NCBI GenBank assembly: GCA_049840735.1
Contig: JASGJN010000022.1
Coordinates: 832,001-896,000 of the forward strand
Reading direction: 5' to 3'
Length of the DNA: 64,000 nt
From: Anaeromyxobacter sp.
Lineage (GTDB): Bacteria > Myxococcota > Myxococcia > Myxococcales > Anaeromyxobacteraceae
A program made the translations under genes and the position numbers. Positions 4,226 to 43,208 of this stretch are shown piece after piece (position 1 is the first letter of the stretch; each line of letters begins with the position of its first letter). Under the pieces are notes generated by a model, which was not told the origin of the DNA, searched no databases, and worked only from the letters and a program-made list of their open reading frames with translations.

Positions 4226-4241
4226 ACACTGACGTCAGTGT
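4226..4241. promoter_or_regulatory. Perfect 16-bp palindrome ACACTGACGTCAGTGT, candidate transcription-factor operator
   Basis: Palindrome about 42 bp upstream of the CoA-activase start, in the divergent metK/activase intergenic region. Confidence 0.55.
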
Positions 4242-4283
4242 CAGTTAGCGACGCGAACCTCTTACTCGATGCGGGGACACGCA

Positions 4284-7922: not shown

Positions 7923-8010
7923 TGTCGCAGCGGACTTCGAAACGAGTTCAAGAACACGACTTCAGGAACACACGAGCTGACCCAACAGGCACACGTAGGA
8001 GGAGAGGAAC

Positions 8011-9700: not shown

Positions 9701-9846
9701 CGTTGTGCTGCCGCTCGGGGGGCGCTCGGGGGGCGCCTCGTCGTGGTGCGCAGCCATTCCGTGTGCTGCCGCGAGGGGGCTCTCGGGCGTCTCTCGCGGC
9801 ACGCAGTTACGGTGCGCATGGGCGTCTCTCGCGGCGCTGTGAACCT

Positions 9847-11373
<1,527 letters not shown>

Positions 11374-25043: not shown

Positions 25044-25375
25044 CGTGGACAATAGAATTTCCGGTGTCCCGAAAAATGCAAGCGAACGCGTGAAGAAAAA
25101 CATGCATTTAGGGGGAATCTCCGTGGCTTCGTTGCTCATTTCACGCCCGGTCCGGTGTCAGCCGGGGCGTGAAGCGTGATGTGTGCCGCAGGCTTGACTT
25201 TCTCGAATTTCAGCGCTCGACGTTCTTCTCCACGGACGTCGAAAATGTTCGTCGAGCACGCGCCGGAGGTGTGTCGTGGATGGTGTTCGGCGCGCTCGGC
25301 CCCGAGCCCGACGTCGCGTCACGCTGCGCCGAGGGGCTGCGAGAACACTGGCGAATCGTTCGTCGATCGTGGATA

Positions 25376-26482: not shown

Positions 26483-26708
26483 GCGCGAGACATCCGCGCC
26501 CTGAAGTTGAGCCTGGTCTGTTGGCCGATATGGGATTTTGCCGCCGCGAGGTCCTCGCGGGGGCACCTGCGGTGATCAGCGTGCCAATTGGCGGGAATCA
26601 ATAGGCAGCTGACCCGAAATTTCCACCGTGCTCATCGATCTTCTCGCCTCAGACAATGACCTTCGCTCGCCGCGGACGCAGGCGTGTGGCAATACGATCC
26701 AGGCAAGG

Positions 26709-27287
26709 ATGAGGTCTCGGCAGCAAGACGAGCGACTGCGTAACATCGTCGGGGAGCATCTCGACACGGTTGCGCGCGTCCTGCGTAACGCTGGAGTCTC
26801 GGAGTCCCAGCTCGATGACGAACTGCAACGCACGCTGATTACCGTGGCGCGACGTCTGGACGACATTCGTCCGGGTGCGGAAAAGAGCTTCCTCATCCAG
26901 ATTGCGTTGCGCGTCGCCGCCCACGCACGACGCACCGTCGCGCGACGTCGAGAGGTGACCGCAGACGAGCTCGACGCCGATGGCCTGTCTGTCGTCGACG
27001 CGGTGGGCAGCACGGAGCGACGTCCTTCTCCGGAGCATCTGACCAATCAAAAGCGGATGCGCGATGCGTTGGATCGAATCCTCGAGAGCTTGGAGGACGA
27101 TCTCCGAGAAGTGTTCGTGCTGTACGAGTTCGAGGAAATGAGCATGATTGAAATCTCGGGCGTGCTCGGGATCCCTCAAGGGACCGTGGCTTCCAGATTG
27201 AGGCGAGCGCGCGCGACTTTTCGCGAACGCGTCGTCGAGCTGGGGCTCGTCGAGGGCGCTCCCGTTCCAAAGTTGGTGGGGTCATGA
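26709..27287 (+). CDS. ECF RNA polymerase sigma factor
   Basis: Region 2 (DDELQRT...FLIQIA.R) and region 4 (REVFVLYEFEEMS..EIS.VLGIPQGTVASRLRRAR). Confidence 0.92.
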   Translation: MRSRQQDERLRNIVGEHLDTVARVLRNAGVSESQLDDELQRTLITVARRLDDIRPGAEKSFLIQIALRVAAHARRTVARRREVTADELDADGLSVVDAVGSTERRPSPEHLTNQKRMRDALDRILESLEDDLREVFVLYEFEEMSMIEISGVLGIPQGTVASRLRRARATFRERVVELGLVEGAPVPKLVGS

Positions 27288-28057
27288 TGGAGCCTAGGCG
27301 ACTCATCGAAGAATGTTCCGAGCCCTTCGAGCGCGCGGTCTTGCGCGCAGGGTTCGACGTGCAAGCGTCCCCGGAGTCGCGCGTACGGGCTTACGAGCTC
27401 CTCGGCCTTTCCGCCTCGCCGAGACCTCGCATTCTTGCCTTCCTGCCGCGAAGAAGGACACGTCTGTTGCTGGCCGCAGTCGCGGTGACGACCATGGCAG
27501 CGGCTTTGCCGTTGGCGTACTACGCGTCGCGCTCATCGGGTCCGTCGGGAATCGTCCCCGCCACCCAAAAGGACTCCGCGACGTCGAACCTCGGGTCGCA
27601 GCTCGGACCGAGGCAGGCCGCGGGCAACGGGTTGGTCGATGTCTCGGAGAGAGCGGCAAAAGACGGCGAAGGTTCCTCCTCGGAGCAGTCGGCTGGCGAG
27701 GCGCCCGTCGATGTCGAAGGTTTGGCGTTGGAAGATGACCATCGCAAGCCCACCTCTGGCGCCGAGGCCAGTGCGAAGTTGGTGGAGCCCAATCGCCTGA
27801 GTCTCGAGCTCAAGGCCTTGGATTCGGCCCGACGGCGACTCCAGTCGGGCGACGCCCTTGGTGCCCTTCAGTTGCTCGACGCGTACGAACGGGAATTCCC
27901 GCAGCCCAGGTTGGCTCCCGAGGCAGAGGTCGTGCGGATTTTTGCCTACGACAAGGCCGGACAAAAGGATACGGCCCGAAGGCGTGCCGCTGTGTTCGTC
28001 GCCCGATATCCGAAGGGGGTTTTGACGGCGAGGGTACGGCGCTATCTTCAGCCGTAG
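27284..28057 (+). CDS. Putative membrane-anchored anti-sigma factor with C-terminal TPR-like helices
   Basis: Overlaps the sigma stop; one TM segment; C-terminal ELKALDSAR...ALQLLDAY...FP....E...A..F..RYP. Confidence 0.65.
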   Translation: MMEPRRLIEECSEPFERAVLRAGFDVQASPESRVRAYELLGLSASPRPRILAFLPRRRTRLLLAAVAVTTMAAALPLAYYASRSSGPSGIVPATQKDSATSNLGSQLGPRQAAGNGLVDVSERAAKDGEGSSSEQSAGEAPVDVEGLALEDDHRKPTSGAEASAKLVEPNRLSLELKALDSARRRLQSGDALGALQLLDAYEREFPQPRLAPEAEVVRIFAYDKAGQKDTARRRAAVFVARYPKGVLTARVRRYLQP

Positions 28058-28060
28058 ACG

Positions 28061-29407
28061 ATGCAAGTTGCGGCAACCCCTGGCCTCGATGTGCGCTCGG
28101 CACGAACGAGCGAGCGCGGGCCCACGCACATTTGGGCGCGTGCGTGTCGGGGGTGTGCGGCGTTGCTCGTTTCCGCAAGTGCTTGGGCTTGTACCGACAC
28201 CGTAGACGTACTCGGCTACGGCGAGGTCGTCGTGCCCGTGACCCTACAGCCCATCGACTGCTCGCGGGTTGCGCAAATGCCGAATCCATATCGCGACGTT
28301 CTCGGGCTCACGGACGCCCAGATCAGCGCGAAACTCAGCAACGCGATCAATACGGTCTTTCACGGCAACCCCGCCACGTACAGCATCTTCACCTCGGATT
28401 CGACGACGGGGACCGCGTACATTCGCGACACGCTCCACGGCGACGAGGTCCGTACCGAGGGAATGGGGCTCGGCATGTTGGCCGCCGTGCTCCTCGATCA
28501 CCAACCCGAGTTCGATCAGCTCTGGCGCTATTCGGTGGCCAATTTGGAGATAAAGACGGGGGCGGCTACGGGGTACTACCGCTCGAGATGCGACGTTACC
28601 GAGACGACGCAGCGTGATTGCATCGATCCGTACGGCTTTCAGCAGTACGTGACGGCGCTGCTCATCGCCAATCAGCGGTGGGGCAAGGTCGACGGGAGTC
28701 CAGATTACGCAGCCGACGCGCTGCAGCTACTCACGGTCATTCGTACCAAGATGCAACAGAACGGCGGGATCGTGGACGGGGTGACGAACACCTTCGATCC
28801 AGTTCAGTATCTCCCTTACGACGAACCCGTCAACGGAGGTTTACCGTACGTCGGCACCGCTCTCGCGATACCCGGATACTACGATCTCTTCGCACAGGTC
28901 ACGGGCGATTCCTTTTTCAGCGAAGCCGCTGCCGCCTCTCGCGTGTTTTTGAAACGAGCTTCGCATCCCGTGACGGGATTGTTCCCCAATGCTGCAAGCT
29001 TCGATGGCGTTCCCGTCTCGGGACGCGGCAACTTCCTGGCCGAGGCATACCGGGTCAATCTGAACCTCGTCATCGATCGGCTGTGGGGCAATCCTTCGGC
29101 GGAGGACGCCGAGTGGCAAGAGCCGATCGCCGATCGAATGCTCCAATTCTTTACGAGCAAGGGCTTCGACACGTACGCATCGGGTTACACTCTCGATGGT
29201 TCGGTCGTGCTGAAGTCGGAGCATATCGACGAGCTCGTCATGGCGAACGCCGTGCTCGCATCGGTATCGAACGTGAGCGATCGGAAGGAGTATCTGGCCG
29301 CTGCGTGGTCGAAGGCGCCTCCCGAGGGAATCGCACGTTATTATGCAGGCCTCATGTATCTCATTGGCAATTTGATCCTTTCGGGTCAGTTCGTGCCATG
29401 TCCGTGA
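28061..29407 (+). CDS. Glycoside hydrolase family 8 (xylanase/Rex-like), probable lipoprotein
   Basis: VRTEGMGLGML, FDQLW, HPVTGLFP, A.RV..N, RYYAGLMYL..LILSGQF; lipobox-like AWAC. Confidence 0.8.
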   Translation: MQVAATPGLDVRSARTSERGPTHIWARACRGCAALLVSASAWACTDTVDVLGYGEVVVPVTLQPIDCSRVAQMPNPYRDVLGLTDAQISAKLSNAINTVFHGNPATYSIFTSDSTTGTAYIRDTLHGDEVRTEGMGLGMLAAVLLDHQPEFDQLWRYSVANLEIKTGAATGYYRSRCDVTETTQRDCIDPYGFQQYVTALLIANQRWGKVDGSPDYAADALQLLTVIRTKMQQNGGIVDGVTNTFDPVQYLPYDEPVNGGLPYVGTALAIPGYYDLFAQVTGDSFFSEAAAASRVFLKRASHPVTGLFPNAASFDGVPVSGRGNFLAEAYRVNLNLVIDRLWGNPSAEDAEWQEPIADRMLQFFTSKGFDTYASGYTLDGSVVLKSEHIDELVMANAVLASVSNVSDRKEYLAAAWSKAPPEGIARYYAGLMYLIGNLILSGQFVPCP

Positions 29408-30820: not shown

Positions 30821-31087
30821 CTAGACTTCCGCGACTCGTGCGGCCACCGCGCGCGCGACTCGTCCAAGCGTCAAAAGCACTCCGTCGCCGATCTCCGTGT
30901 CGGAGAGCTCGATTCGATAGCGGCGCTCGACGGCCGCTGCCCACTGCAAGGAATCCACCGAATCGAGGGGGAGTCTCCCACCGAACAGCAGCTCGTCGGC
31001 CTCCAAGGGGGGATTGGGGGGAACGATTCGAAGCGTTTCGCAGAGCAGCGCGGACAGTTCGGCGAGCGGGGGGCCTTCGCGGTTCAC
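30821..31087 (-). CDS. Acyl carrier protein
   Basis: 88 aa, acidic; LFGG.LPLDSVDSL phosphopantetheine Ser motif. Confidence 0.85.
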   Translation of the reverse strand: MNREGPPLAELSALLCETLRIVPPNPPLEADELLFGGRLPLDSVDSLQWAAAVERRYRIELSDTEIGDGVLLTLGRVARAVAARVAEV

Positions 31088-31140
31088 GCCCCGATTATGA
31101 CGAAGGATCGGCTGTCGCCCATGCTATAGGCGGCCCCGAA

Positions 31141-32328
31141 ATGCTCGAGGTCCCCGTTGCCATTACGGCCGTTGGCGCCGTCACCGCCCTTGGGCTTGGG
31201 CCGGACTGCCTGTTCGACGGCTTATTGGCGGGAGTACGCGGTTTTGGACGCGTCGAGCGGTTCGGTGTCAACGGATGCCGCGTGCAATTGGCCGCTGAGG
31301 TGCGGGGTGACCTTCCGGTCGTCGGTTCGACTCGCACTGCGGATCTGGCCGTGACGGCCGTGCGGAATGCCATCGCGAAGCTGCCGCCCTTCGTGGATTT
31401 GTCGAGGGTGGGGGTGGTTTTGGGTTCTGCTGGCGCGGGAACGGCAGGGCTCGAGGATCGACTCCTCGGCATTGCTGACGCACCGGCATTGCTTCGCCGT
31501 TACACGAAACGCGAGCTCGTCGACGAGGTTGCTCGTTCGCTCGGCTTCGGTGGTCCGCGACACGCCATCAACACCGCGTGTTCGAGCGGTGCCATGGCGG
31601 TGGCCCTCGCTGCAGATTGGCTGCGATTCGGGGACTGTGACGTTGCCATCGCCGTGGGCGCGGACGAACTCGGTCGCTTCACGTACACGGGGTTTCACGC
31701 TTTGCGCGCGATGGATCCAGAACCGTGTCGGCCGTTCGATCGTCATCGACAAGGGCTCACCATGGGCGAAGGTGCGGGATGCGTCGTGCTCGAGCGACCT
31801 CGGGAGGCTCGTCGGCGAGGCGCCCCGATCCGCGCGTTTCTCGGTGCCGTGGGACAAGCCTGTGACGCCCATCACCTCACGGCGCCCGATCCCTCGGGGG
31901 CGGGTCCGGCCCGCGCAATCGCGCGTGCACTCGAGGGGGCTGGGGTAGAGCCTCGGGAGGTCGGGTTCATCAACGCGCATGGCACTGGAACTCCCCTGAA
32001 TGACGCGGCCGAAGTGTCCAGTATCGAAGTGGCACTCGGGGCCGCAGCAGTGGAGTGTCCGGTTCATTCGGTCAAGGCGACCGTCGGGCATTGTATGGGA
32101 GCCGCCGGCGCCATCGAAGCCGTCGTTGCCGTGTTGTCCCTGGAACGACAGTTGGTTCCGCACACCGCTGGGCTTACGGATTGTGAGTTCGATGGTCGCG
32201 TCCGCTGCGTCCGAGGCGAGCCCCTGCACGTCGAAGCGGACTTTGCCTTGAGCACGAGCTTCGGCTTCGGCGGCAACGACGCGGCGATTCTGCTCGCGCA
32301 TCCCCGCGTCTTCGAGGAAGGCACTTGA
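31141..32328 (+). CDS. Beta-ketoacyl-ACP synthase (FabF/type II KS)
   Basis: NTACSSG, CRPFD, GEGA, NAHGTGT, KATVGHCMGA, SFGFGGND (Cys-His-His triad intact). Confidence 0.93.
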   Translation: MLEVPVAITAVGAVTALGLGPDCLFDGLLAGVRGFGRVERFGVNGCRVQLAAEVRGDLPVVGSTRTADLAVTAVRNAIAKLPPFVDLSRVGVVLGSAGAGTAGLEDRLLGIADAPALLRRYTKRELVDEVARSLGFGGPRHAINTACSSGAMAVALAADWLRFGDCDVAIAVGADELGRFTYTGFHALRAMDPEPCRPFDRHRQGLTMGEGAGCVVLERPREARRRGAPIRAFLGAVGQACDAHHLTAPDPSGAGPARAIARALEGAGVEPREVGFINAHGTGTPLNDAAEVSSIEVALGAAAVECPVHSVKATVGHCMGAAGAIEAVVAVLSLERQLVPHTAGLTDCEFDGRVRCVRGEPLHVEADFALSTSFGFGGNDAAILLAHPRVFEEGT

Positions 32329-33257
32329 CGATGGGTCGAAGGGAACTGGTCGATTCGACTCGGAGCACTCCGCTGCTCCATGACGTGTGGGTGACCGGAG
32401 GCACCCTATTGCTCCCCGAAAGGGGTAAGGGATGCTTTTCGTCACTTTCTACCATCGATCCGAGTGCCCTTCTCGGTCCCGAGCGGACTCGTCGACTGGA
32501 TCCGCTCAGCCAGTTCGCCCTGCTCGCGACGGAGCGGGCGCGCCGGACGGCGTTGCTTCCTCGTCAGAGCTCGGTCGAAATTCGTGAGCGGGAGGGCGTC
32601 GTGGTCGGAACTGCCTTTGGCGCTACGGTGACCAGTGTTCGCTACGCCAAGCGTCTCGTTAAGGCCGGTCCGGCGGGCACCAACCCCATCGACTTTCCTG
32701 ATTCGATCGACGGGGCTGCTGCGGCTCACGTCGCGCTCGATCTGGGGCTCCAAGGGCCGAGCCTGACATTCGTGGATGGCCGCGACAGTGCCGCGTCGGC
32801 GTTGGTCGTCGGGGCTCGTCTGATTGCGACCGGGCGAGCCGAGCGCGTGCACGTCGTGGCTGGCGACGTGCTCGACGAGGTGTTTCAGCGTGCATTGACG
32901 TCGGATGTCGGGATTGAGTTCGGCGACGCCGTTGCCGCTTGGGTGCTCGAGCGCGCCGAATTGCGACCTGCGGTGCAAGGAACCGTCGCAATCGACGGGC
33001 TCACCTCGGCATTCGGTGTGCGAGACGACGGATCTGGCTTGGCGAAGGAACACTCGTACTTCGGAGGCCAGGCCGATCCCGCTGGGGTCCTCGACGTAGC
33101 GGGGGCATGGCTCCAGGCTCGAGGCCCGATGGGCAGCGCCGATGACCCGTGGCAACCTGATGGGATGACTGACTTCGACGGTGCTCCTGCCGAAGCGCCG
33201 ATCCCGAACGGCACCTATCGAGCTTTGCGCTTCCGTCCCGTCGTTGCGCGAAGGTGA
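32325..33257 (+). CDS. Ketosynthase N-terminal-like protein (chain-length-factor type, no catalytic Cys)
   Basis: RRLDPLSQ, GVVVGTAFG, P..FP.S, GPSLTF; translationally coupled to the KS. Confidence 0.78.
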   Translation: MTMGRRELVDSTRSTPLLHDVWVTGGTLLLPERGKGCFSSLSTIDPSALLGPERTRRLDPLSQFALLATERARRTALLPRQSSVEIREREGVVVGTAFGATVTSVRYAKRLVKAGPAGTNPIDFPDSIDGAAAAHVALDLGLQGPSLTFVDGRDSAASALVVGARLIATGRAERVHVVAGDVLDEVFQRALTSDVGIEFGDAVAAWVLERAELRPAVQGTVAIDGLTSAFGVRDDGSGLAKEHSYFGGQADPAGVLDVAGAWLQARGPMGSADDPWQPDGMTDFDGAPAEAPIPNGTYRALRFRPVVARR

Positions 33258-33265
33258 GGCGATCC

Positions 33266-34753
33266 ATGGCACGACTTCTGCTCATCGAGGCGAACGACAA
33301 TGCGCGTTGGGTTGGCGCGCGCGTCGGGCCAAAAGTGCACGTATTGCCCATTGCACTCATGGGGCTCGCCGCATTTGCAAAGCAGCTCGACCCCACACTC
33401 GAAGTCCGGCTCGTGGAGACGTCCCTCGATGCAACGGACGACGAGACACTCGCCAGGATCATTCGCGAATTCGAACCGACGTGGATCGGGATCCGCAGTA
33501 TCAGCTTGTTCGTCGACGAAGTGCGGCGCGTCGTGCGTGTGGCCAAAGCGACGTCGACAGCGGACGTGCTGCTCGGGGGGCCCATCTCGACGGCCCTCAA
33601 GGAAGGGATCTTCGAAGCCGTACCGGAGCTCGATTATGCCGCGGTGAACGAGGGCGAGCCGGTCATCGAGGCGCTGGTCCGCGGTACGCGATTGTCACTC
33701 ATTCCGGGGGTGCTCTCGCGTCACGCGCAGGGGCTCAAGGCGCACAAGTCGGCGAGCTTGCCGCGGGATCTCGACCCGTTGCCCTTGGCTGATTATTCCC
33801 TCGTCGACTTGGATCGTTACTCGCACCAGTTGAGCTACGCCTACAATCAACGTCGGCAGGGTGTTCTGGTCACGAGCCGAGGCTGCCCGTATTCCTGCAC
33901 GTACTGTTTTCAGATCTCCGAAACGCCCGTTCGGCTCCACTCCGCGGAGCGAGTGGTCAGTGATATCGAGCGCATGCACGGTGAATTCGGGATTTCCGAC
34001 TATTACGTCGTCGACGACGTGTTCAACCTCAATCGCAAGCGTGCGCTCGACGTGTTTGCTCGCCTCGAACGTGCCAAGCTCGGTGTGCGGCTCTACTTCG
34101 TCAATGGCTTGCGTGTCGACCTATGTGACGAGACCTTCGTCGAGAGCATGGTGCGCGCGGGGACCGTGTGGGTCACGTACGCGATCGAGTCTGCGTGTCC
34201 ACGGATCCAGAAGCTCATTCGCAAGCAGCTCGATTTGGACCACGCGCGACGCATCATCAACTTCAGTCAAAAACAGGGGATCGTCGTCAACGTCAACACG
34301 ATGTTTGGCTTTCCCACCGAGACGAAGGAAGAGGCGGACCAGACTCTCGACTACATCGGCAGTCTCGATCATCCGTCGCTGTTGCCCTACCATTTCAATT
34401 TGCGTGGCTACCCTGGCTGCGAAATCGTCGAACAGGCGGACGCGGCTGGATGGTCGCGCGATAGCTTCCTTGCCACGGGCTTCGGCAGCTATGGGGATTT
34501 GCCTGCCGGATCACCCACGTTCTCGCGCCGGGACATGATGGCGCACATGCTTTCATTTCATGAGCGGTTCGGTCTGGCCAATCGCAGGCACCTGGCCTAC
34601 GCCATTCGAACCCTCCAGGGAATCGGCTACTCGGAACGCGAGCTCCTCGACATGTACACCGTGCTCAACAATCGCAAGGTGCACTCGCTAAGCGACCTTA
34701 CCACGGAGCCAACGAACCAAATTCACAGGAGCGACTCCATTCGCTGGGCGTAA
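33266..34753 (+). CDS. Cobalamin-binding radical SAM enzyme
   Basis: N-terminal B12-binding domain (P..L..LAA, VLLGGP) and TSRGCPYSCTYC (CxxxCxxC), DDVF, IES, MFGFPTET. Confidence 0.92.
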   Translation: MARLLLIEANDNARWVGARVGPKVHVLPIALMGLAAFAKQLDPTLEVRLVETSLDATDDETLARIIREFEPTWIGIRSISLFVDEVRRVVRVAKATSTADVLLGGPISTALKEGIFEAVPELDYAAVNEGEPVIEALVRGTRLSLIPGVLSRHAQGLKAHKSASLPRDLDPLPLADYSLVDLDRYSHQLSYAYNQRRQGVLVTSRGCPYSCTYCFQISETPVRLHSAERVVSDIERMHGEFGISDYYVVDDVFNLNRKRALDVFARLERAKLGVRLYFVNGLRVDLCDETFVESMVRAGTVWVTYAIESACPRIQKLIRKQLDLDHARRIINFSQKQGIVVNVNTMFGFPTETKEEADQTLDYIGSLDHPSLLPYHFNLRGYPGCEIVEQADAAGWSRDSFLATGFGSYGDLPAGSPTFSRRDMMAHMLSFHERFGLANRRHLAYAIRTLQGIGYSERELLDMYTVLNNRKVHSLSDLTTEPTNQIHRSDSIRWA

Positions 34754-34759
34754 TCGGAC

Positions 34760-34896
34760 TCGGCGTCGTTCGGCGTCGTTCGGCGTCGTTCGGCGTCGTT
34801 CGGCGTCGTTCGGCGTCGTTCGGCGTCGTTCGGCGTCGTTCGGCGTCGTTCGGCGTCGTTCGGCGTCGTTCGGCGTCGTTCGGCGTCGTTCGGCGT
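34760..34896. repeat. Perfect 10-bp tandem repeat (CGGCGTCGTT), about 13.6 copies
   Basis: Directly visible; starts 7 bp after the radical SAM stop, between convergent genes. Confidence 0.97.
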
Positions 34897-34963
34897 GACC
34901 GATTGGGCCTGCGCACATGGTCGACCGTGACGGCTACTCGCGTCTCTCGACTCGATTGCCGAT

Positions 34964-35224
34964 TCAGCTGCTCTTTGCTGCGGAGCTGCGCTTCGTTTGC
35001 ACGAGTTCGACGATGAGGTTCAAGGTGTCGAGTCTGCCATCGACGATATCCATCGAATCGACGTCGATATCGAACTGCTTTTCCAGGAAAAGCACCAACT
35101 TCAGGGTCGCGACGGAATCCAGCAAGCCTGAGGAAATGAGCGGTTGCTCTGGGTCGAGAGCGTCTTTCGATTCGCCGCTGAAGAATTCGTTGAGGAGGTA
35201 GGTTCGAACGAGATCGAGGGTCAT
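34964..35224 (-). CDS. Stand-alone acyl/peptidyl carrier protein
   Basis: LISSGLLDSVATLKLVLFLE motif; immediately downstream of the adenylation enzyme. Confidence 0.88.
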   Translation of the reverse strand: MTLDLVRTYLLNEFFSGESKDALDPEQPLISSGLLDSVATLKLVLFLEKQFDIDVDSMDIVDGRLDTLNLIVELVQTKRSSAAKSS

Positions 35225-35247
35225 GGCAAGGATCGGACGGAGCGCGC

Positions 35248-36810
35248 TCAAGCGACGTTTCCGGCAGTCTGCCCCTGAAGAGCCAGCAAATCCAGTTTTC
35301 CCGTGAGTGTCCGCGGGAGTTCGGCCACGATTTCGACCGCATCCGGTACGAGATATGGCGGCAGACAGGTGCCCGAGTGGGCTTTCAGTATCAAGGGTGA
35401 CGCTTGGGCTCCGTCGCGCAGCGTTACTGCGGCGACGACACGTACCGTGTCGGAATGACGCTCCGCGTAGGCGACGACCTCTCGCACCGCGGCGTGACGT
35501 CGCAGCGCCGCTTCGATCTCACCGAGTTCCAAACGGTAGCCACGACGTTTGACCAGGCGATCACGTCGGCCCAGAAACCAATATCGACCCGATTCGTCTT
35601 GCTTCGCGAAGTCCCCGGTTCGGTAAAATCGTCGTAAATCGCCTGCGATTCTGCTCGGCGCGAAGGCTCGCTCACTCAATTCGGGTTTGCCGAAGTAACC
35701 CGTCATCAGCTGTGGCCCGGCGACGTAGATCTCGCCCGCTTCTCCTTGGCGCACCGGGTTGCCTTGCTCGTCACGCAGCTCGACGTCGAGGTGTTCGCAG
35801 GAAATCCCTATAGGAACTGCGGTTGCGTCCTCGGCGGGGAGCTCGGTCAGAGCGTGATACGTGCAAACGTTCGTTTCCGTGGGACCAAATAGATTGAAGA
35901 AGCGCGCGGAAGAAAGCGCTTGCATCGCTTCGCGCAGGGCGGGGATCGGAAATGGTTCGCCCGCATAGAGGACCCGTTCGAGTGGCGAGGTCGTACTCGT
36001 GCGCCATGCACCATCGGACACGAGTCGCTCGATCGTCGATGGAACCGCGTAGAGCGTCGTAATATCGCAACGCGACAGCCACGCGACCAGGTCCTTTGGG
36101 TGCAAGAGCCGCTCTTGCGACACGAGCACCATGGTGGCGCCCGCGCTCAGGGACGCGAATAGGTCGAAGATGGACAGGTCGAAGGACAGTGGGGCAAAAC
36201 TTGCCACCCTGTCGGTCGCGTCGAGTGCGAAACAGGAAACGGACCAATCCACGAACGCCGTTGCGGCACGGTGCGAGATCTCAACGCCTTTGGGGTGCCC
36301 CGTGGTGCCGGACGTATAAAGAATATAGGCCGCATCGTCGGGGGGAACCTCCGTGGTGAGCCTCATCGCGTCGTCGGATGGGGTCGACGTCGCCTCTCTT
36401 CGATGAGCGTCGGTGAACGCGTCGGACAACGAGATGACTTCAGGTACCGTTGCGCAAAGCTCGGGGGCACTCGAGCGAATGCGCGACAACAAGCTCGGTG
36501 ACACGAGCCAAGCCCGTGGCGCACAATCCTCGATGATCTGTGCAATCCGAAGCCGGGGAGCGCGCGGATCGATGGGTACGTATGCGGCGCCGAGCATCAG
36601 AATCGCAAGTATGGCGGAGATCGCGTCCGCGTCCTTGTGGACCAAGAGCGCGACGCGCGTGCGTGGCCGAACTCCGCTAGCCCAAAGCGTTCGCGCGACG
36701 AGCTTCGCCCGCATCAGGAGTTCACCGTAAGTGATTTGCGTCGCGCCATCGTCGATAGCAATCCGCGACGGCTGGCGTTCACATCCTTCGAGGAATCGAC
36801 GAAGTAACAT
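35248..36810 (-). CDS. Stand-alone amino-acid adenylation enzyme (probable L-prolyl-AMP ligase type)
   Basis: YILYTSGTTGHPKG, FDLSIFD, YAGE, NLFGPTETNVC, YRTGD, LPRT.TGK; start MLLRRF overlaps the upstream stop; the 752-aa fused ORF is a frameshift artefact. Confidence 0.88.
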   Translation of the reverse strand: MLLRRFLEGCERQPSRIAIDDGATQITYGELLMRAKLVARTLWASGVRPRTRVALLVHKDADAISAILAILMLGAAYVPIDPRAPRLRIAQIIEDCAPRAWLVSPSLLSRIRSSAPELCATVPEVISLSDAFTDAHRREATSTPSDDAMRLTTEVPPDDAAYILYTSGTTGHPKGVEISHRAATAFVDWSVSCFALDATDRVASFAPLSFDLSIFDLFASLSAGATMVLVSQERLLHPKDLVAWLSRCDITTLYAVPSTIERLVSDGAWRTSTTSPLERVLYAGEPFPIPALREAMQALSSARFFNLFGPTETNVCTYHALTELPAEDATAVPIGISCEHLDVELRDEQGNPVRQGEAGEIYVAGPQLMTGYFGKPELSERAFAPSRIAGDLRRFYRTGDFAKQDESGRYWFLGRRDRLVKRRGYRLELGEIEAALRRHAAVREVVAYAERHSDTVRVVAAVTLRDGAQASPLILKAHSGTCLPPYLVPDAVEIVAELPRTLTGKLDLLALQGQTAGNVA

Positions 36811-37835
36811 TAGTGCTCCCGCTGCATCAAGGTCACTCCCCAAGAGAAGCCGCTGCCGGCCGCGAGCCACGCGCTGTGGACCGTCGAGCCACCATCCTGT
36901 CGCTGCAACCAAGCTTCGGCGTTGATGAGCAGATCGCTTGCGAATGCGTGCCCCAGGTGTTTCGGTCCGGGGCCGATGAGCCGAGTCGAATCCACACCCA
37001 TGCCTCGGGCGATGCTCGCCCGATTCGAGCTCAGTCGTGTTCGGATAAACGTAGTCGAGATCGGGGATGCTCTCGAACCTGGCCGCTTTGCACGCGCGCG
37101 AGAGCAGACGATTCAACATGACGAAGTGGATCGGTAGGATGGACTGTTCGAAGGTGCGTCCATCGAGACTCATGCCACCGTCCTCGACGACGAGCACGTC
37201 TGCGAACCTGCCGTGCTGCTGAGTCGCGATTGCGAGGATCTTTGCAAGCCGGTTGGGGTTTTCCTCGGCGCGGCCGACGATCATGGCGGACGCTGCGTCC
37301 GCCATGATCGAGACGGGCAAACACAGTCTGCCGTTGTCGGGCGCTCGATCCGACGCAACCAAGAGAACGTACGAAATATCTCGTCGTGAGCTCAGGAAAG
37401 CGTCCACGAGGAGTAAAGCGAAGTGTAAACCAGCACATCCCGAGCCACGTGTGCCGAGCGCGAGCGCCTCGGAAGCGCCGAGTCGACCTTGAAGGGCGTG
37501 TGCCAACGACCAGATCCTGGGCGAATCCGCTGAGAATGTCGAAAATCGACGATGAGTCCGAGCTGATGCGGTTCGAGCTGCGCTTGCCTGAGGGCGCGCT
37601 TCGCCGCCGATTCGGCGTGTTCCAACGAACTCAGCTCGTCCATGCGAGCGACGTCGAAGATGCCCAGGTTGTCGAGGAGCCTGGTTCGAAGTCCCGGGGA
37701 AAGCGAGTTGAGTTGCGTTTCCTTGCGTTGCCGCTCTGCGTCGAAAACCCGAGCCACCGGGATGCGACCTTCCGGGACGCTGAGACCTTCTCCAAGTAAG
37801 ACGAGGTTCGAGGGGACGGCTGGCGACACGGGCAA
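36810..37835 (-). CDS. KAS III (FabH)-like protein, atypical active site (apparent frameshifts near 37543 and 37024)
   Basis: AAKRAL, LIVDF, GSGCAG, VASD, D.ASA, YPN, HLGHAFASD, AAGSGFSWG. Confidence 0.75.
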
Positions 37836-37947
37836 TGGCCTAGCACCCCCAAAAGCGCGGTGGCAATTTGGGGGTAGAAGCCGGCAAAAATCGCCGGAAA
37901 TCGGGCAGAGGCGGAAGGTTTTGCACGTGCGTCGAGGCAGGGGACTT

Positions 37948-37962
37948 GTGAATGGTATTCAC
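37948..37962. promoter_or_regulatory. Palindrome GTGAAT-N3-ATTCAC, candidate operator in the divergent KASIII/fabI promoter
   Basis: Perfect 6-3-6 inverted repeat about 21 bp upstream of the fabI start. Confidence 0.45.
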
Positions 37963-37983
37963 CGACTCTAGGCAAAGTGCCCC

Positions 37984-38925
37984 ATGAGGATCGATCTAGC
38001 AGACAAGCGCGTGATTGTCGCGGGCGTTGCCGACGACGGAGGTTTTGGGTTCGCCATCGCCAAGGCGTTTGCAGAAGCGGGGGCGAAGGTCAATGTCGCG
38101 ACCTGGCCACCCGCGATGACCGTGTTCGAGAAGTTGTGGGAGCGAGGGAAGTTCGACGAGTCACGTCAACTCGAGCGCGGTGGCTTGCTCGAGTTCGAGA
38201 ACGTGTTTCCCTTGGACGCCACTTTCGACGAATGGAGCGACGTGCCCGAAGAGGTGCGTCAGAGCCGACGTTACGCCGGTCGAGGCGATTTTACCATCGA
38301 AGGTCTCGTCGATTCGGTGGAACGCGCTTACGGCAAGAACTCGATGGATGTGGTCGTACATTGCCTGGCGAACGGTTCCGAGGTGAATCGACCGCTCATG
38401 GACACATCGCGCAAGGGGTACCTCGGTGCGATCGGCGCGAGTGCATATTCGAACGTGTCCATGGTCAGTCGCTTTGCTCCGTTGATGCGAGCTTCGAGCA
38501 GCTTCTTGTCGCTGAGCTATCTCGCCAGTGAGCGCGTGGTGCCCCTCTATGGTGGCGGAATGTCGGCGGCCAAGGCCGCTCTCGAGTGTGATACCCGTTA
38601 CTTGGCTTTCGAGGCAGGCCGTCGTTATGGCTTCCGTGTCAACGCGATCTCTGCCGGCCCCTACGCTTCGCGTGCAGCCAGCGTCGGGGGATTGGTGCAT
38701 TCCATCGTCGAGTATTACGAGGAGAACTCGCCCCTGCCGTGTCGCGTGACGCCGACTCAAGTGGCGCATGCCGCGCTGTTTCTGTGTAGCCCTCTGGCGA
38801 CCGCGATCACCGGTACGACCCTCCACGTCGATCACGGCCTGCACGTCATGGCGAAGGGTGTAAGTTCCGCAGATCTGGCCTGGCTGGGACTCGACTCTCG
38901 CGAGACCCACGCTGCCGTAGGTTAG
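37984..38925 (+). CDS. fabI: Enoyl-ACP reductase (Chlamydia/plant-type FabI)
   Basis: AGVADDGGFGFAIAK, PLDA, long insertion DVPEEVRQSRRY, HCLANGSEV, YGGGMSAAKAALE, RVNAISAGP.ASRAA. Confidence 0.9.
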   Translation: MRIDLADKRVIVAGVADDGGFGFAIAKAFAEAGAKVNVATWPPAMTVFEKLWERGKFDESRQLERGGLLEFENVFPLDATFDEWSDVPEEVRQSRRYAGRGDFTIEGLVDSVERAYGKNSMDVVVHCLANGSEVNRPLMDTSRKGYLGAIGASAYSNVSMVSRFAPLMRASSSFLSLSYLASERVVPLYGGGMSAAKAALECDTRYLAFEAGRRYGFRVNAISAGPYASRAASVGGLVHSIVEYYEENSPLPCRVTPTQVAHAALFLCSPLATAITGTTLHVDHGLHVMAKGVSSADLAWLGLDSRETHAAVG

Positions 38926-39192
38926 GTTACGTCGCTTGCCTCCGCGGTTCCAACGGTGTTGGCGTCGTCGTGAGGGAACTGTCGGACCCGAAGTTGATGA
39001 CGGCTGGGCCGTCGCTGTAGCGCGGTAGCACTTGGTCGCTCACCTCGTGAAAATCGGGCATCTGGAGAGAGTGCTTCCTTTCGTTTCGTAAACACGGTTC
39101 TGTTTGTTGCGGAATTGTGTCCGAAATATGTCGTTTTTCACGGTACAACTTTGTGCTTGCGCAATGACGGCTATCACCAAATCATTGTGCTC

Positions 39193-39957
39193 ATGCCGTC
39201 GCTGCCCGAGCGTAAATCCCAAGTAAGTGCGTCTTCCCCTGGTTTTCGCGCCACTTTGAGTGGGATGGGGGTTGCCGATCTGGTGCAGATGAATTGTCTG
39301 TCCGGGCAGACCTGCAGCGTGAAGGTGACTTCGGAGACGCGGGTTGGCTGGCTCCATTTTGCCCAAGGAAATATCGTTCACGCTTCGACCGGTGCGTGGG
39401 TTGGGGACAAAGCCGTGCTCGAGATCCTTTCGTGGCAGGAGGGCAGTTTCGAGCCCGTCGGCGGGATCTCACCGGAGCGTCGTACGGTCGAAACCGGCTG
39501 GCAGAATCTACTGCTGCTCGCGGCTCAACAGCGGGACGAGGGAAGCCGAGCGACGGTGCTGCCTTTGGAGCGTGCTCACGCGCCGGTCTCGGCGCGGGTT
39601 CCTCGGGGTCTGTCTGGGGGCTCGTCGAGTGGTGTGCGACTGCCCGAAGTGCCGCAAACGCCGCCGCCCGAATCGACGCCGCGAGACCTGGACGTGGCTT
39701 TTGCGCGCATCGACGATTCCGGCAACATCTTGTTTCAACGCGGTGACGTCGAGGACCTCATCGCGCAGGGGGCTTACGCCGCTGAACTCGCTCAAATGAT
39801 TGCCGAGCAGCTCGGACTCGAGCGAGCCACCTCGGTCGAGATGCGCGATTCCCGATTGCGCACCTGGGTCAACGTTGGCGAGCGTGGGGAGCTCGAAATC
39901 ATCCGCGGCAGCGACGAGGCTGCCATGAACGAAATCAAACGACACGTATTTCGGTAG
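39193..39957 (+). CDS. DUF4388 domain protein
   Basis: F.A.L....ADLVQM, GWLHF..G.IVHA, G..A..EILSW.EGSF, W..LLL.AA...DE. Confidence 0.78.
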   Translation: MPSLPERKSQVSASSPGFRATLSGMGVADLVQMNCLSGQTCSVKVTSETRVGWLHFAQGNIVHASTGAWVGDKAVLEILSWQEGSFEPVGGISPERRTVETGWQNLLLLAAQQRDEGSRATVLPLERAHAPVSARVPRGLSGGSSSGVRLPEVPQTPPPESTPRDLDVAFARIDDSGNILFQRGDVEDLIAQGAYAAELAQMIAEQLGLERATSVEMRDSRLRTWVNVGERGELEIIRGSDEAAMNEIKRHVFR

Positions 39958-39966
39958 GAGTCCAAG

Positions 39967-40452
39967 ATGTTCGACGCAACGGTCGCCCAGCTCCGCGCAT
40001 TGCGCGACGTCAAAGGGGTCATTGGTTCATTTCTCGTCGATGCGAAGGGGGCGCTCTGCGAGTCCGACATGCCGGCGGCCCTGGGTCAGCGAGAGCTCGC
40101 CGAGGTGAGTTCTCGGGTCACTCGGCTCGTCGAGGCGCTCTCGACCGACGGTACGCCGGATAGCTGCAGCATACGGTGTGTCGAGCACCGCCTCACCGTT
40201 CGTTCATTTGCGCCTCAAGGATACCTGTGCGTTCTTTCGGACGAACACGTCAACTGGCCCGCCTTGCGCATGGCCACCACGCTTTCGATCCGTAAATTGA
40301 GCACGCTTCCGATGTCACCTTGGGTCGACACGACGCAGCAGGATCGCAGTCGCTCGACGGAGCCCGCGATCGCGCCTTCCGAGTCCGTCAAGCCTCCGCC
40401 ACCGACAACGGTACGTCCCGGATTGGTTTATCGCGGTCAGCGCATCAGCTGA
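39967..40452 (+). CDS. Roadblock/LC7 (MglB-like) domain protein
   Basis: LRDVKGVIGSFLVD..G, LCVL, VN..ALRMA; Pro-rich tail ending VYRGQRIS. Confidence 0.7.
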   Translation: MFDATVAQLRALRDVKGVIGSFLVDAKGALCESDMPAALGQRELAEVSSRVTRLVEALSTDGTPDSCSIRCVEHRLTVRSFAPQGYLCVLSDEHVNWPALRMATTLSIRKLSTLPMSPWVDTTQQDRSRSTEPAIAPSESVKPPPPTTVRPGLVYRGQRIS

Positions 40453-40631: not shown

Positions 40632-42822
40632 TTACTTGACGTTGATGTTGGGTTTGGGCGGTGCGGCCATCCCGCTGCCAATGTGGAAGCTGGTGTGGGG
40701 CGCTTGGTTGTAGGAAGCATTCTGAGCCGATACGTTGGCGCGATATTGGGGATCGTGCATCAGGGTGTAGATGCGCCGTTTGGTCATTTGCGTCGTCGAA
40801 TAGATCCGAAGGCTGCTGCCGCAGAGGAACACGACCTCTTCGCGCCAGTCACCGAAGAGATCGGCACTCAGGTTCGGCACGGACTTGGTGCCGTTGATCG
40901 AGGTGCATCCTGTCGCAGTGAATCCCTGTCCTTCACCGTCGTATTCGGACACGGTATTGCCGTTGAGCAATTCGCGGCTCTCGTCACCGTCCCACCACAG
41001 AAGGAAGTTGCAGGTGCTTGGGTTCCTCCCGACGTTGGCTCCGGTGGTTGCGCTGAATAGGCCTGCACTGTTGACCCAAGCTTCTCCACCGGGGTTGGTC
41101 GGCGAAATGTCGTCCGCCACGCCTCGTCCGGGGCCCTCTTCGGTACTCGTCGGGCCCTTCCAGACGACGGCGCAGGTCTTTGCGTCGCGCATGATGTACG
41201 CAGGGACTCCCGTGGGTTCGGTGGGTTGGAATACTTCCAGACCCGGGCGCGAGGGAATGAAGTCGCCGATATGAAGTGCGTCACCATGGGCTCCGCCCGC
41301 GGTCGTGCAGATCCCCTTGCCGTCGGGGCTGATGGTGAACGAACCTGGGATGATCTCCTGACGGTCGTCGCCGTCCACGTCCGCGACCATCATGCTGTGG
41401 GTTCCCTTGCCGCCATAGGCACCATTACCCGAGGCGGCAGAGTCAAAGGACCAAACCAGGGAGAGCTTGCCGTCGCGGTAGTCGTATGCGCCCAAGGTCG
41501 TCCGCGCGTAATAGCCGCGTTGCATCACGACGCTCGGCTTGCCCGTCGTATCGAGGAAGGCGACGGAAGCGTTATAGCGATCGGAACGATTGCCGTTGGT
41601 ATCACCCCAATTGCCGCTGTTGATAGGCGCGTGATAGTTGATCGTCGCCAGTTCTGCGCCCGTCCGTCCGCTGAATACCGTCACGTACTCCGGACCTGAC
41701 AAGATCTTGCCTGCGCCGTTGCGGTAGTCCTTGGTGTCGTCGTCGGAGGCGGCGGGTCCCGTTTTCAGGAAGCTACCCGTGCCGTCCTTGGTTCCAGGCG
41801 CCGTCTTCACCACGAGTTCGGAGCTCCCATCGCCATCGAGATCGTAGACGACGAAAGGCGTCGTGTGTTCACTTTCTCGGATGTTGCGTCCCAAGTCGAC
41901 GCGCCACATGAACTTGCCATCGAGACGGTAGGCTGCGAACTTGGGTTGTCCCGTGACGCCGTCCTCGAGATGGATCCTTGGGGGATTGCTGCTCTTTCAC
42001 GACGAGTTCGTATTGGCCGTCACCATCGAGATCCCCGGGCGACGCGTCCCCGGCGTTGTAGCCCGAGGGGGTTTTTAGCGGGATAGTGAGGTAGTTTTGC
42101 GGCAGCACACTCGCCGCGGATGGCGTCGTTCGCGATGTCGAGGAGTCGCCATACTCTTTACCCCCGATCACTGCTCGGACCGTGTAGGTTGCCGTACTGG
42201 GCGCACCCTCGTCGACGAAGTTCGTGGAATCGGAGACGGGATTCGCGTTGACCTTGGTCCCGTTGCGATAGACGTTGAAGCCGGTGTCCGGTGCTTCGTA
42301 TCCCATGAGGCGCCAGCTCAGGAAATTGTTCGAGCCGGACCGAATCGCGACCAGGCCGCGGCAGAGGTTCTCCATTTGTACCTTGCCCTGAGCCAAGCTC
42401 TGCACCACGCCGCAAGCGGCTTCGCTGTTGCTGCTGCCGCCCACGCTCGCGCTGCCTCCGCGCCCGACGTCGCTGCCACCGGAGCCGACCGCGCCTCCAA
42501 ATCCCTGCGGCGTCGAGCCGCCGTTGCCTCCCAGGGACGCGGAGCCGCCCGCGCCTCCAAGGGTTCCTTCGGTGGTCATGCTCGAAACACCACCCGAACC
42601 TGGACTTCCCCCCTTTTGCGATTGGCCACCGGAAATACTCGTTCCACCGCGAGCAACGCTTCCGCCATTCGACGGTTTGCCGCCGTTTGCCGTTTCACTC
42701 GGGGTTCCTCCGCTGCCAGGCGAACCGGAATCCGTGCCACTACAGTTTGGTAGTACGGCTGCGACGAGCAAAAGAGACAGACTCGTTTTGGCCACGGCAG
42801 CCGTGGTTACATGCGTGTTCAT
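40632..42822 (-). CDS. Rhamnogalacturonan lyase (PL11, YesW/YesX-like) lipoprotein with Gly/Ser linker (apparent frameshift near 41966)
   Basis: MENL.RGLVA, FLSWRL, GDLDGDGQYE, VYDLDGDG, RGYY, HGDALH, DLFGDWREE, TLMHDPQYR, YNQ.PH; RBS AAGGAG. Confidence 0.9.
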
Positions 42823-43208
42823 GGGGCTCCTTCGATGATCGTGATTGCGTGGAGGGGTGAGTCGAGCGTGTCGCGTCAGGCCAACGGTCGCCTGCGTGTT
42901 CCCGAGCGGAGTGACTCGAATTCGACCATCCGTGTGACGGATCTCTTCCCTTTGCACGTCGGCGACTTTGGTATCGTGCCAACTTGCTCGGGGGACACGT
43001 GGACGGCTTCGTTGCACCGCGTGCCTTGGACTTTCCCTGTCACTGTTGCGCGTCGCGACGCTCGCCAATCAAGAGATTCAGAGGAAGCGTCGTTCCTGTT
43101 CGAACGACCTCGGCCCGAGGCCGTCACGGATGCGGTGTCACGCGCCGCTCGCGGCCGTGCGTGGGTGAAGCGGCCCCATGCTGGAGAACGACCACCATTG
43201 GTGGGGCT

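What the first reader, a model, noticed from the sequence alone, without database searches (positions are those of the whole stretch)
30821..38925. Compact hybrid cluster: prolyl-type A domain, carriers, KAS III-like, KS/CLF, B12 radical SAM and FabI
Seen: eight genes in four divergent/convergent blocks (ACP; KS-CLF-radical SAM; KASIII-like-A domain-PCP; FabI), with coupled start/stop codons. My manual reading of the A-domain pocket is D-L-F-Y-L-A-L-V-C-K. Established, recalled from memory: stand-alone L-prolyl-AMP ligases (PltF, RedM, CloN4) have nearly this code, and the clorobiocin CloN set couples such an enzyme to a PCP, a KASIII-like transferase (CloN2) and a B12 radical SAM methylase (CloN6). 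Inference: a (methyl)prolyl or pyrrolyl unit is handed to a type II KS/CLF/ACP system with its own enoyl reductase, giving an aminoacyl- or pyrrolidine-lipid or a polyketide. The prolyl-PCP dehydrogenase usual in pyrrole pathways is absent, as are KR and DH. I do not recognise this combination as a described pathway.
Basis: partly seen in the sequence, partly recalled or inferred. Interest (0 to 1): 0.8.

Follow-up and report, generated by a model that had tools for sequence, protein, structure and literature searches.

The report
Proline-capped fatty-chain gene cluster
Seven genes that recur together in uncultured myxobacteria, and inside larger gene sets in acidobacteria, likely load the amino acid proline onto a carrier, probably methylate it and extend it into a fatty chain, which would be an undescribed kind of bacterial lipid or small molecule.

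Summary
The eight genes are there, but the conserved unit is seven: FabI was adjacent in 0 of 7 complete related loci. The KAS III-like gene carries two frameshifts, probably assembly errors. The stretch (61% GC) belongs to a Polyangiaceae-like genome joined onto a 74% GC contig. The core recurs in the same order in 7 complete loci; its KS is in 7 of 11 genomes of one genus. All seven genes also sit inside larger aryl-polyene-like cassettes in two acidobacterial genomes, with ketoreductase, lipid acyltransferase and a Tes-like enzyme. The A domain matches PltF at 9 of 10 pocket residues. No prolyl dehydrogenase was found in the clusters or in 8 carrier genomes. The radical SAM defines a clade tied to prolyl carriers, not a known family. 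Best reading (0.4): a methylprolyl starter is passed by a ChlB3-type transacylase to KS/CLF, giving a pyrrolidine-capped chain. Rivals: N-acylproline, a self-released bicyclic tetramic acid, a pyrrole. No product is shown. The scan noted related clusters on other DNA (e1-1116959, e1-3962740). New variant of a known kind.

The parts
30821..31087 (-). Acyl carrier protein (88 aa, DSVDS motif), divergent from the KS operon; likely the carrier for KS/CLF
   Evidence: PF00550; weak PRK09184-family match below cut-off; PDB hits are fatty-acid-type ACPs; homologue at the same place in 7 of 7 complete loci
31141..32328 (+). FabF-like ketosynthase, catalytic Cys147, His280, Lys312, His317
   Evidence: Pfam; these residues invariant in 16 of 16 aligned homologues; below cut-offs of fabF (282/494), PRK09185 (257/407) and cispentacin AmcF (238/325)
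32325..33257 (+). Chain-length-factor-like KS partner, 310 aa, no catalytic Cys, eroded C-terminal half
   Evidence: N-terminal KS domain only; NPIDFPDSIDGA invariant in 15 of 15; model folds as a KS half, FabF and ishigamide CLF among the matches; 36 representatives at 194 bits or more, then a gap to 139
33266..34753 (+). B12-binding radical SAM enzyme (CX3CX2C at 207-214), member of a clade tied to prolyl carriers; predicted C-methylase
   Evidence: PF02310 + PF04055; no NCBIfam family reached, best ApyD 153/750; clade of 23 rows, 99% SH-aLRT; model closest to TsrM, AprD4, TokK at 18-22% identity
34760..34896 (.). Perfect 10-bp tandem repeat, 13.7 copies, between the two convergent operons
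   Evidence: three or more copies in a row occur only here in the assembly; no role shown
34964..35251 (-). Peptidyl carrier protein of the PltL/PigG type (start at TTG 35251 or ATG 35224)
   Evidence: PF00550; best PDB matches 5jdx, PltL and PigG, E about 1e-5; homologue in 7 of 7 complete loci
35248..36810 (-). Stand-alone adenylation domain, 520 aa, pocket DLFYLALVCK; predicted L-proline:PCP ligase
   Evidence: TIGR01733 above cut-off; best single-domain PDB match 6o6e, L-proline--[L-prolyl-carrier protein] ligase; code 9 of 10 identical to it
36810..37835 (-). KAS III-fold acyltransferase (Cys ... His-x4-Asp, ChlB3/CerJ/AfcL type), broken by two frameshifts near 37543 and 37025 in this assembly
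   Evidence: three pieces match whole homologues, up to 82% identity; whole in 7 of 7 complete loci; best PDB match of a whole orthologue is ChlB3
37984..38925 (+). Enoyl-ACP reductase of the PRK06300 type; neighbour, not part of the conserved core
   Evidence: NF004957 420 bits, cut-off 356; adjacent in 0 of 7 complete loci; unlinked in 3 and not found in 4 of 7 carrier genomes

Best explanation
The seven conserved genes likely form a proline-primed starter module on a minimal type II ketosynthase system: the A domain is predicted to load L-proline on the PCP, the B12 radical SAM likely methylates the ring, the KAS III-like enzyme likely moves this unit to the ACP, and the KS with its CLF-like partner would extend it into a pyrrolidine-capped acyl chain that would end up in a lipid. 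Shown: the genes, their order, their recurrence, the catalytic motifs, and the lack of a prolyl dehydrogenase in what was searched. Inferred from close homology: proline activation and loading. Inferred from gene context: the radical SAM acts on the carrier-bound prolyl unit; the ring stays a pyrrolidine. Inferred from motif and precedent: carrier-to-carrier transfer by KAS III. Least supported: chain length, use of host FabG/FabZ/FabI, and lipid attachment in the myxobacterial form, which has no reductase, release or transfer gene of its own.
For: A domain: 9 of 10 pocket residues equal to PltF in the PDB alignment; 62 of 78 other loci of this A family carry a PltE-like dehydrogenase; PCP closest to PltL/PigG. 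Pyrrolidine kept: no dehydrogenase hit in 7 of 7 complete loci or in the 3 acidobacterial clusters; 13 of the 16 dehydrogenase matches in 8 carrier genomes were placed in a tree and all fall outside the clade of A-adjacent dehydrogenases (100% SH-aLRT), scoring at most 331 on its profile against 415 or more for 29 of 30 held-out members. Radical SAM: 13 of 14 clade members with known context lie near a Pro-type A domain, PCP-like carrier or dehydrogenase, three of them without any KS (L120, L153, L154), against 0 of 6 outgroup loci tested. It has Val252 where TsrM has the cluster-blocking Glu273 (PMC8992657). KAS III: Cys/His-x4-Asp as in ChlB3, which moves an acyl group between carriers (PMC9573744), and lacks the FabH His/Asn pair. 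KS residues intact. In G1303 and G1430 all seven genes lie in one co-directional run with FabG, an LpxL-type acyltransferase, an esterase and, in G1303, FabZ, GT2, LolA-like and MMPL genes, with no other starter ligase: the layout of aryl polyene lipid clusters with the aryl ligase replaced (PMC8253772). Cispentacin shows a KS with a truncated partner borrowing host FabI (PMC10698177).
Against: No product, substrate or activity is measured. The Polyangiaceae carriers show no orthologue of the acidobacterial accessory genes: acyltransferase hits 28-33% in 4 of 5 genomes, FabZ hits 30-42% and mostly partial, second radical SAM 25-32%, so lipid attachment there rests on host enzymes. A Cys/His/Asp KAS III can also form amides (AfcL, PMC12186527). 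The radical SAM is co-transcribed with KS/CLF rather than with A/PCP, and its invariant Arg77 aligns, across a two-residue gap, with TsrM Arg69, which hints at pyrrole-type chemistry; two clade members sit beside a dehydrogenase (L120, L154). A free secondary amine on a thioester may cyclise before a long chain forms (own knowledge). Carrier genomes are incomplete MAGs, so a dehydrogenase could be unassembled. The acidobacterial A domains read DLFYLALVVK and do not group with the myxobacterial ones. The KAS III gene is broken in this assembly.
Confidence: 0.4

Rival explanations
1. N-acylproline lipoamino acid: KS/CLF builds or lengthens an acyl chain on the ACP, and the KAS III-like enzyme transfers it to the nitrogen of (methyl)prolyl-PCP; a host esterase or acyltransferase takes it off.
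For: AfcL, with the same Cys/His/Asp triad, couples an acyl-peptidyl group to the amine of an aminoacyl thioester (PMC12186527, passages). Avoids extending a thioester with a free amine. An esterase gene sits within a few genes of the PCP in G1430, G1303, L093 and L094. KAS III is co-transcribed with A and PCP.
Against: Best PDB match is the carrier-to-carrier transferase ChlB3, though weak (E 2.5e-7). The larger cassettes hold no other starter ligase. The seven-gene core has no conserved release gene; an alpha/beta hydrolase flanks only L115.
Confidence: 0.25
2. Short self-releasing product: after one C2 extension the ring nitrogen attacks the thioester and releases a methylated pyrrolizidine-1,3-dione (a proline-derived bicyclic tetramic acid) or its reduced form.
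For: Explains why the myxobacterial core needs no KR, DH, thioesterase or transferase. The partner is truncated like AmcG, which with AmcF performs one extension and a cyclisation (PMC10698177); weak AmcF/AmcG profile matches. Ring chemistry from own knowledge.
Against: AmcF and AmcG cut-offs are not met (238/325, 20.5/80). The acidobacterial versions carry KR, DH and lipid-transfer genes. No transporter or resistance gene travels with the core.
Confidence: 0.15
3. Pyrrole product after all: the prolyl unit is oxidised either by this B12 radical SAM (replacing the flavin dehydrogenase) or by an unlinked, unrecognised oxidase, and a pyrrolyl starter is extended.
For: Nearly all characterised ligases of this type feed pyrrole pathways (own knowledge; 62 of 78 loci). 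Structural neighbours include TsrM, an sp2 methylase, and AprD4, a non-methylase. B12 radical SAMs that do not methylate cannot be told apart by sequence (PMC12931638).
Against: Clade members L120 and L154 have both the radical SAM and a dehydrogenase, so it does not simply replace it. No PltE-clade enzyme in 8 carrier genomes; none at E 1e-40 in G1303 and only a 35% match in G1430.
Confidence: 0.12
4. The A domain activates another small amino acid or a proline analogue, or this copy of the cluster is decaying (real KAS III frameshifts), so that nothing proline-derived is made here.
For: Identity to the nearest other A domains is only 35-42% outside the orthologues; two breaks in KAS III; no reads were available to test them.
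Against: Pocket code DL(F/L)YLALVCK in all 7 complete loci. Two other genes of the window are also split; the two shifts cancel and one lies in a T run; the other six genes are whole.
Confidence: 0.08

Closest known systems
Pyrrole-2-carboxyl starter cassettes (PltF/PltL/PltE, PigI/PigG/PigA; clorobiocin CloN1-7)
   Same: PltF-type A domain with 9 of 10 pocket residues, PltL/PigG-type carrier, second carrier, KAS III-type transferase and a B12 radical SAM (CloN gene roles recalled, except CloN6 as pyrrole methylase from PMC8992657).
   Different: No prolyl-carrier dehydrogenase in the cluster or found in carrier genomes; a KS/CLF pair is present; no aminocoumarin or type I PKS genes; radical SAM matches no curated family.
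Aryl polyene (APE) lipid clusters, highly reducing type II PKS
   Same: ACP, KS and CLF; the acidobacterial versions add KR, DH, acyltransferase, glycosyltransferase, LolA-like and RND/MMPL genes as listed for apeA-R (PMC8253772).
   Different: Starter module is a Pro A domain, PCP and KAS III instead of the 4-hydroxybenzoate ligase ApeH; the window's form has none of the reductive or transfer genes; several radical SAMs in the larger form.
Cispentacin/coronafacic acid KS-CYF system (AmcB, AmcF-AmcG, AmcH)
   Same: Minimal set of adenylating enzyme, carrier, KS and truncated partner; host FabI is borrowed (PMC10698177).
   Different: AmcF and AmcG profile cut-offs not met; starter is predicted to be proline, not 2-oxoglutarate; two carriers, KAS III and radical SAM added.
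ChlB3 / CerJ / AfcL KAS III-like acyltransferases
   Same: Cys with His-x4-Asp triad; no FabH His/Asn pair.
   Different: Distant (E 2.5e-7 to ChlB3); forms its own family of about 64 proteins at 42% identity or more; acceptor unknown.
TsrM, TokK and other B12 radical SAM methylases
   Same: Rossmann B12 domain plus radical SAM barrel, CX3CX2C.
   Different: 18-22% identity; no Glu at the TsrM Glu273 position; own motifs G-x-R-(S/G) and LSY(A/G)YNxRRQG.

Membership tests
L-proline:carrier ligases (PltF/PigI) | Stand-alone A domain with pocket DL(L/F)Y(L/I)A(L/W)VCK | tested here: met
   DLFYLALVCK against DLLYLALVCK for 6o6e and DLFYIAWVCK for 7thn, read from the alignments
L-proline:carrier ligases (PltF/PigI) | Activates L-proline | not testable with these tools
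   needs ATP-PPi exchange or carrier loading
Pyrrole-2-carboxyl cassette | PltL/PigG-type carrier next to the ligase | tested here: met
Pyrrole-2-carboxyl cassette | Prolyl-carrier dehydrogenase (PltE/CloN3 type) | tested here: not met
   absent from 7 of 7 complete loci; 13 of 16 genome matches placed, all outside the clade; genomes are incomplete
Clorobiocin CloN set | Radical SAM orthologous to CloN6 | not testable with these tools
   no CloN6 sequence was returned by any search; no NCBIfam family reached
ChlB3/CerJ-type KAS III acyltransferase | Cys-His-Asp triad in place of Cys-His-Asn | tested here: met
   GSGC and GHAF(A)(S/N)D in window pieces and 7 of 7 whole homologues; aligned to ChlB3 GHLGASD (PMC9573744)
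FabH (condensing KAS III) | His244/Asn274 decarboxylation pair | tested here: not met
   PHQAN and GNT motifs replaced; fabH profile 24 bits against 292
Type II KS/CLF | KS with Cys-His-His followed by a partner without the Cys | tested here: met
Type II KS/CLF | The two proteins form a heterodimer | not tested
Highly reducing type II PKS / aryl polyene cluster | Own KR and DH, acyltransferase and transport genes | tested here: not met
   not in the window or 7 complete myxobacterial loci; met in acidobacterial G1303
Cispentacin KS-CYF (AmcF/AmcG) | NCBIfam AmcF and AmcG cut-offs | tested here: not met
   238/325 and 20.5/80
TsrM-type non-radical methylase | Glu ligand on the unique iron (Glu273) | tested here: not met
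   Val252 at that column; Val, Leu, Ile or Gly across the clade
TsrM-type non-radical methylase | Arg at the lower axial cobalamin position (Arg69) | tested here: inconclusive
   invariant Arg77 aligns with it only across a two-residue gap; coordinates could not be inspected

The most novel reading that the evidence does not exclude
The cluster makes fatty acyl chains that end in a methylated pyrrolidine ring, an amine-tipped counterpart of omega-cyclohexyl and aryl polyene chains, built into membrane lipids. A new clade of B12 radical SAM enzymes does radical C-H chemistry on carrier-bound proline, and in acidobacteria a Tes-like enzyme and further B12 radical SAMs cross-link or branch these chains.
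Probability: 0.2. Interest if true: 0.85.

Novelty: new variant of a known kind. Interest (0 to 1): 0.58.

Why it matters
All parts are of known kinds, but proline ligases of this type are almost always paired with a dehydrogenase and make pyrroles; here the pairing is missing in two phyla while a dedicated radical SAM clade, a transacylase and a KS/CLF pair are kept. Seven small soluble proteins make it a tractable reconstitution. It would give the substrate of an uncharacterised B12 radical SAM clade, test whether an unprotected cyclic amino acid can prime a type II ketosynthase, and give a concrete context for some acidobacterial Tes homologues, whose function in bacteria is unconfirmed (PMC11868695, PMC8941075).

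Tried and rejected
Own genome as context: rejected, because the window lies in a 61% GC tail of a 74% GC contig and 0 of 20 relatives of the host genome hold the cluster (only short A-domain matches). The host's A domain and dehydrogenase on contig C11 belong to the high-GC part and were not counted. A KAS III-A fusion (752-aa ORF): artefact of the frameshift. FabI as a cluster gene: not conserved; the only hint for a shared neighbour is that one close KAS III homologue, P0159, matches the spacer up to 37975. Ornithine-lipid OlsH pathway: the PCP scores 70 against a cut-off of 130 and no GH3-like gene is present (PMC12493201 seen as listing only). brGDGT cluster of Solibacter: its plsAR and tes homologues are far apart by locus tag (supplement of PMC10087280), so the acidobacterial loci were not equated with it. 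Split cluster in Polyangiaceae with accessory genes elsewhere: no orthologues found in 5 genomes. Sequencing runs: none was listed, so frameshifts and expression are untested. KS-CLF complex prediction and the VIA second look were not available; no verdict. Promoter/terminator scan gave no more than chance. ESM Atlas returned only generic B12 radical SAM clusters. Literature: one search found 0 papers with 5 of 6 terms; one search listed 5 (2 read as passages, neither describes this set; 3 seen as listing only); one search listed 5 unrelated titles; some searches concerned acidobacterial lipids. MIBiG and most subscription papers were not searchable.
Full report
Observation. The eight genes are present as described. 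Two carriers, a FabF-like KS, a KS-derived partner, a B12-binding radical SAM, a stand-alone A domain, a KAS III-fold gene and a PRK06300-type FabI lie in four blocks. The KAS III gene changes frame near 37543 and near 37025; its three pieces match whole homologues at up to 82% identity. The shifts cancel, one lies in a T run, and a rhamnogalacturonan lyase and an alkaline phosphatase gene in the window are also split, so assembly error is the likelier cause. No reads were available to test this.

Whose DNA it is. The window lies at 832-896 kb of a 973-kb contig whose GC falls from about 75% to 61% near 825.5 kb and stays low to the end. The tetranucleotide distance of the low part is 0.16-0.18 to two Polyangiaceae-type loci and 0.64 to the rest of its own contig, and it carries second copies of housekeeping genes at 59-65% identity. 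None of 20 relatives of the host genome has the cluster. Five upstream neighbours are shared with L001 and L083. I read this as a misjoined piece of an uncultured Polyangiaceae genome; a very large transfer is not excluded.

Conservation. Of 80 genome loci found with the A domain, 2 (L001, L002) carry all seven core genes in the window's order. Of 14 metagenome loci found with the radical SAM, L083 is complete, 11 show the same order up to a contig end, and 2 are of another layout. In 383 genomes of the family, 9 have a radical SAM match, 8 of them at 56-73%. Of the 6 further ones fetched, L114, L115, L116 and L118 are complete, L117 is cut by a contig end, and in G139 the two operons lie apart, the KAS III orthologue on another contig. 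The KS orthologue is in 7 of 11 genomes of one genus. FabI is adjacent in 0 of the 7 complete loci, unlinked in 3 of 7 genomes searched and not found in 4.

A domain and carriers. The best single-domain PDB match is 6o6e, an L-proline:carrier ligase; its pocket, read from the alignment, differs at one of ten positions. All 7 complete loci read DL(F/L)YLALVCK. The PCP is closest to PltL and PigG; the other carrier is closest to fatty-acid ACPs. Proline activation is therefore well supported but not measured.

No dehydrogenase. A PltE-like gene lies in 62 of the 78 other A-domain loci, and in none of the cluster loci. Eight carrier genomes gave 16 dehydrogenase matches at 28-38%. Thirteen were placed in a quick tree (two too short, one not fetched) with 63 dehydrogenases from prolyl-carrier loci (61 beside an A domain, plus L120 and L154); the two sets are separated with 100% SH-aLRT, and the 13 score at most 331 on a profile where 29 of 30 held-out members score 415 or more. 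G1303 has no match at E 1e-40 and G1430 one at 35%; G824's two best scored 386, which is ambiguous. These genomes are incomplete.

Radical SAM. It has the B12 domain and CX3CX2C but reaches no NCBIfam cut-off. In a quick tree of 38 rows it falls in a clade of 23 (99%) marked by G-x-R-(S/G) and LSY(A/G)YNxRRQG. Context is known for 14 rows; 13 lie near a Pro-type A domain, a PCP-like carrier or a dehydrogenase, the exception being the 6-kb contig of G139. Three have no KS nearby: L120 (A, dehydrogenase, PCP), L153 (A, PCP) and L154 (dehydrogenase, carrier). Six outgroup loci tested have none of these genes. The common partner is thus the prolyl carrier. The model (pLDDT 91) is closest to TsrM, AprD4 and TokK at 18-22% identity. 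By my count on the alignment, TsrM Glu273, which blocks radical chemistry (PMC8992657, passages), corresponds to Val252; this favours radical C-H methylation. Against it, invariant Arg77 aligns with TsrM Arg69 across a gap, and non-methylating members of this superfamily cannot be recognised by sequence (PMC12931638, passages).

KAS III, KS and partner. Whole orthologues keep the Cys and a GH-x4-D motif, the triad of ChlB3, which moves an acyl group between two carriers (PMC9573744, passages), and of AfcL, which forms an amide (PMC12186527, passages). The FabH His/Asn pair is missing. The KS keeps Cys, His, Lys and His in 16 of 16 homologues. The partner keeps only the N-terminal half, lacks the Cys, folds as a KS half and forms a discrete family. 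Heterodimer formation was not tested.

Larger relatives. Searches of 401 Acidobacteriota and 401 Terriglobia genomes gave 1 and 2 matches. In G1430 and G1303 all seven core genes lie in one co-directional run with FabG, an LpxL-type acyltransferase, an esterase, a second B12 radical SAM and a Tes-like enzyme (368 bits against a cut-off of 450 for G1430); G1303 adds FabZ, a GT2-like gene, a LolA-like gene and MMPL. G824 has most of these, with its Pro-type A domain on another contig beside MMPL and no second carrier found. This is the gene list of aryl polyene lipid clusters (PMC8253772, passages) with the aryl ligase replaced by the proline module. Five myxobacterial carriers show no orthologues of three accessory genes tested, so their core stands alone.

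Mechanism. The best reading (0.4) is a methylprolyl starter moved to the ACP and extended, with reduction by host enzymes as in cispentacin (PMC10698177, passages), to give a pyrrolidine-capped acyl chain. N-acylproline (0.25), a self-released pyrrolizidinedione (0.15), a pyrrole (0.12) and a different substrate or a decaying copy (0.08) remain open. The proline module is the firm part; the product is not known, and the myxobacterial and acidobacterial forms may make different things.

Comparison and novelty. It works like a pyrrole starter cassette in its first step and like a type II KS/CLF system in its second, but fails the defining tests for the pyrrole cassette (no dehydrogenase), for aryl polyene clusters (no KR/DH in this form) and for the cispentacin system (cut-offs not met). 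Three searches for the combination found no description; MIBiG and most subscription journals were out of reach. Other papers seen: PMC13459092 (outline, sections 9, 18, 19), PMC11868695, PMC8941075, PMC11446937 (passages), PMC10087280 (passages and supplement search), PMC12493201 (listing). CloN gene roles other than CloN6 are recalled. Earlier scan notes describe a proline-primed KS operon read as pyrrole-forming (e1-1116959) and an acidobacterial KS/Tes-like lipid cluster (e1-3962740); I did not check their DNA. Verdict: real, conserved, undescribed as far as searched; a new variant of a known kind, interest 0.58.

Noticed in passing
G000 contig C22 near 825.5 kb; whole window: GC steps from about 75% to 61% and stays low for 147 kb; composition and duplicated housekeeping genes point to a chimeric contig. 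The tail of contig C25 is also about 61% GC.
   Followed up: yes
L196-L197 (G1303), L199 (G1430), L161-L162 (G824): Acidobacterial cassettes joining the proline module and KS/CLF to FabG, an LpxL-type acyltransferase, two to four B12 radical SAMs and a Tes-like enzyme; no dehydrogenase. Worth a study of their own.
   Followed up: partly
L093, L094: The same radical SAM clade directly upstream of a longer Tes-like gene (699 aa in L094, 323 bits against 450), with FabG, esterases and a PCP; L094 also has a second B12 radical SAM and a PlsA/PlsR-like pair.
   Followed up: partly
window 4269-9633: PlsA/PlsR(Ger)-like pair, 44% and 40% identical to the pair beside the radical SAM in L094, 21 kb from the cluster; a link is not shown.
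   Followed up: partly
window 40632-43068 and 22046-23777: A family 11 rhamnogalacturonan lyase and an alkaline phosphatase are each split over two frames, consistent with indel errors in this stretch.
   Followed up: partly
window 34760-34896: Perfect 10-bp repeat, 13.7 copies, between the convergent operons; found nowhere else in the assembly as three or more copies.
   Followed up: partly
L181-L184 (G080, G084, G077, G076): A second locus in the same genus: an ACP followed by a fused KS-CLF-like gene, after a MoxR ATPase, without KR or DH.
   Followed up: no
L120 (G330), L153 (G410), L154 (G639): Small sets of the same radical SAM clade with A domain, dehydrogenase and carrier but no KS; candidates for methylpyrrole or methylproline units.
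   Followed up: partly
L186 (G639) 3487-10536: A domain with pocket DLFYLALVVK next to a methyltransferase and two B12 radical SAMs.
   Followed up: no
window 25169-29407: ECF sigma factor, putative anti-sigma and GH8 genes upstream of the cluster, in the same order in L001 and L083.
   Followed up: no
window 39115-40452: DUF4388 protein and Roadblock/LC7 protein directly after FabI.
   Followed up: no
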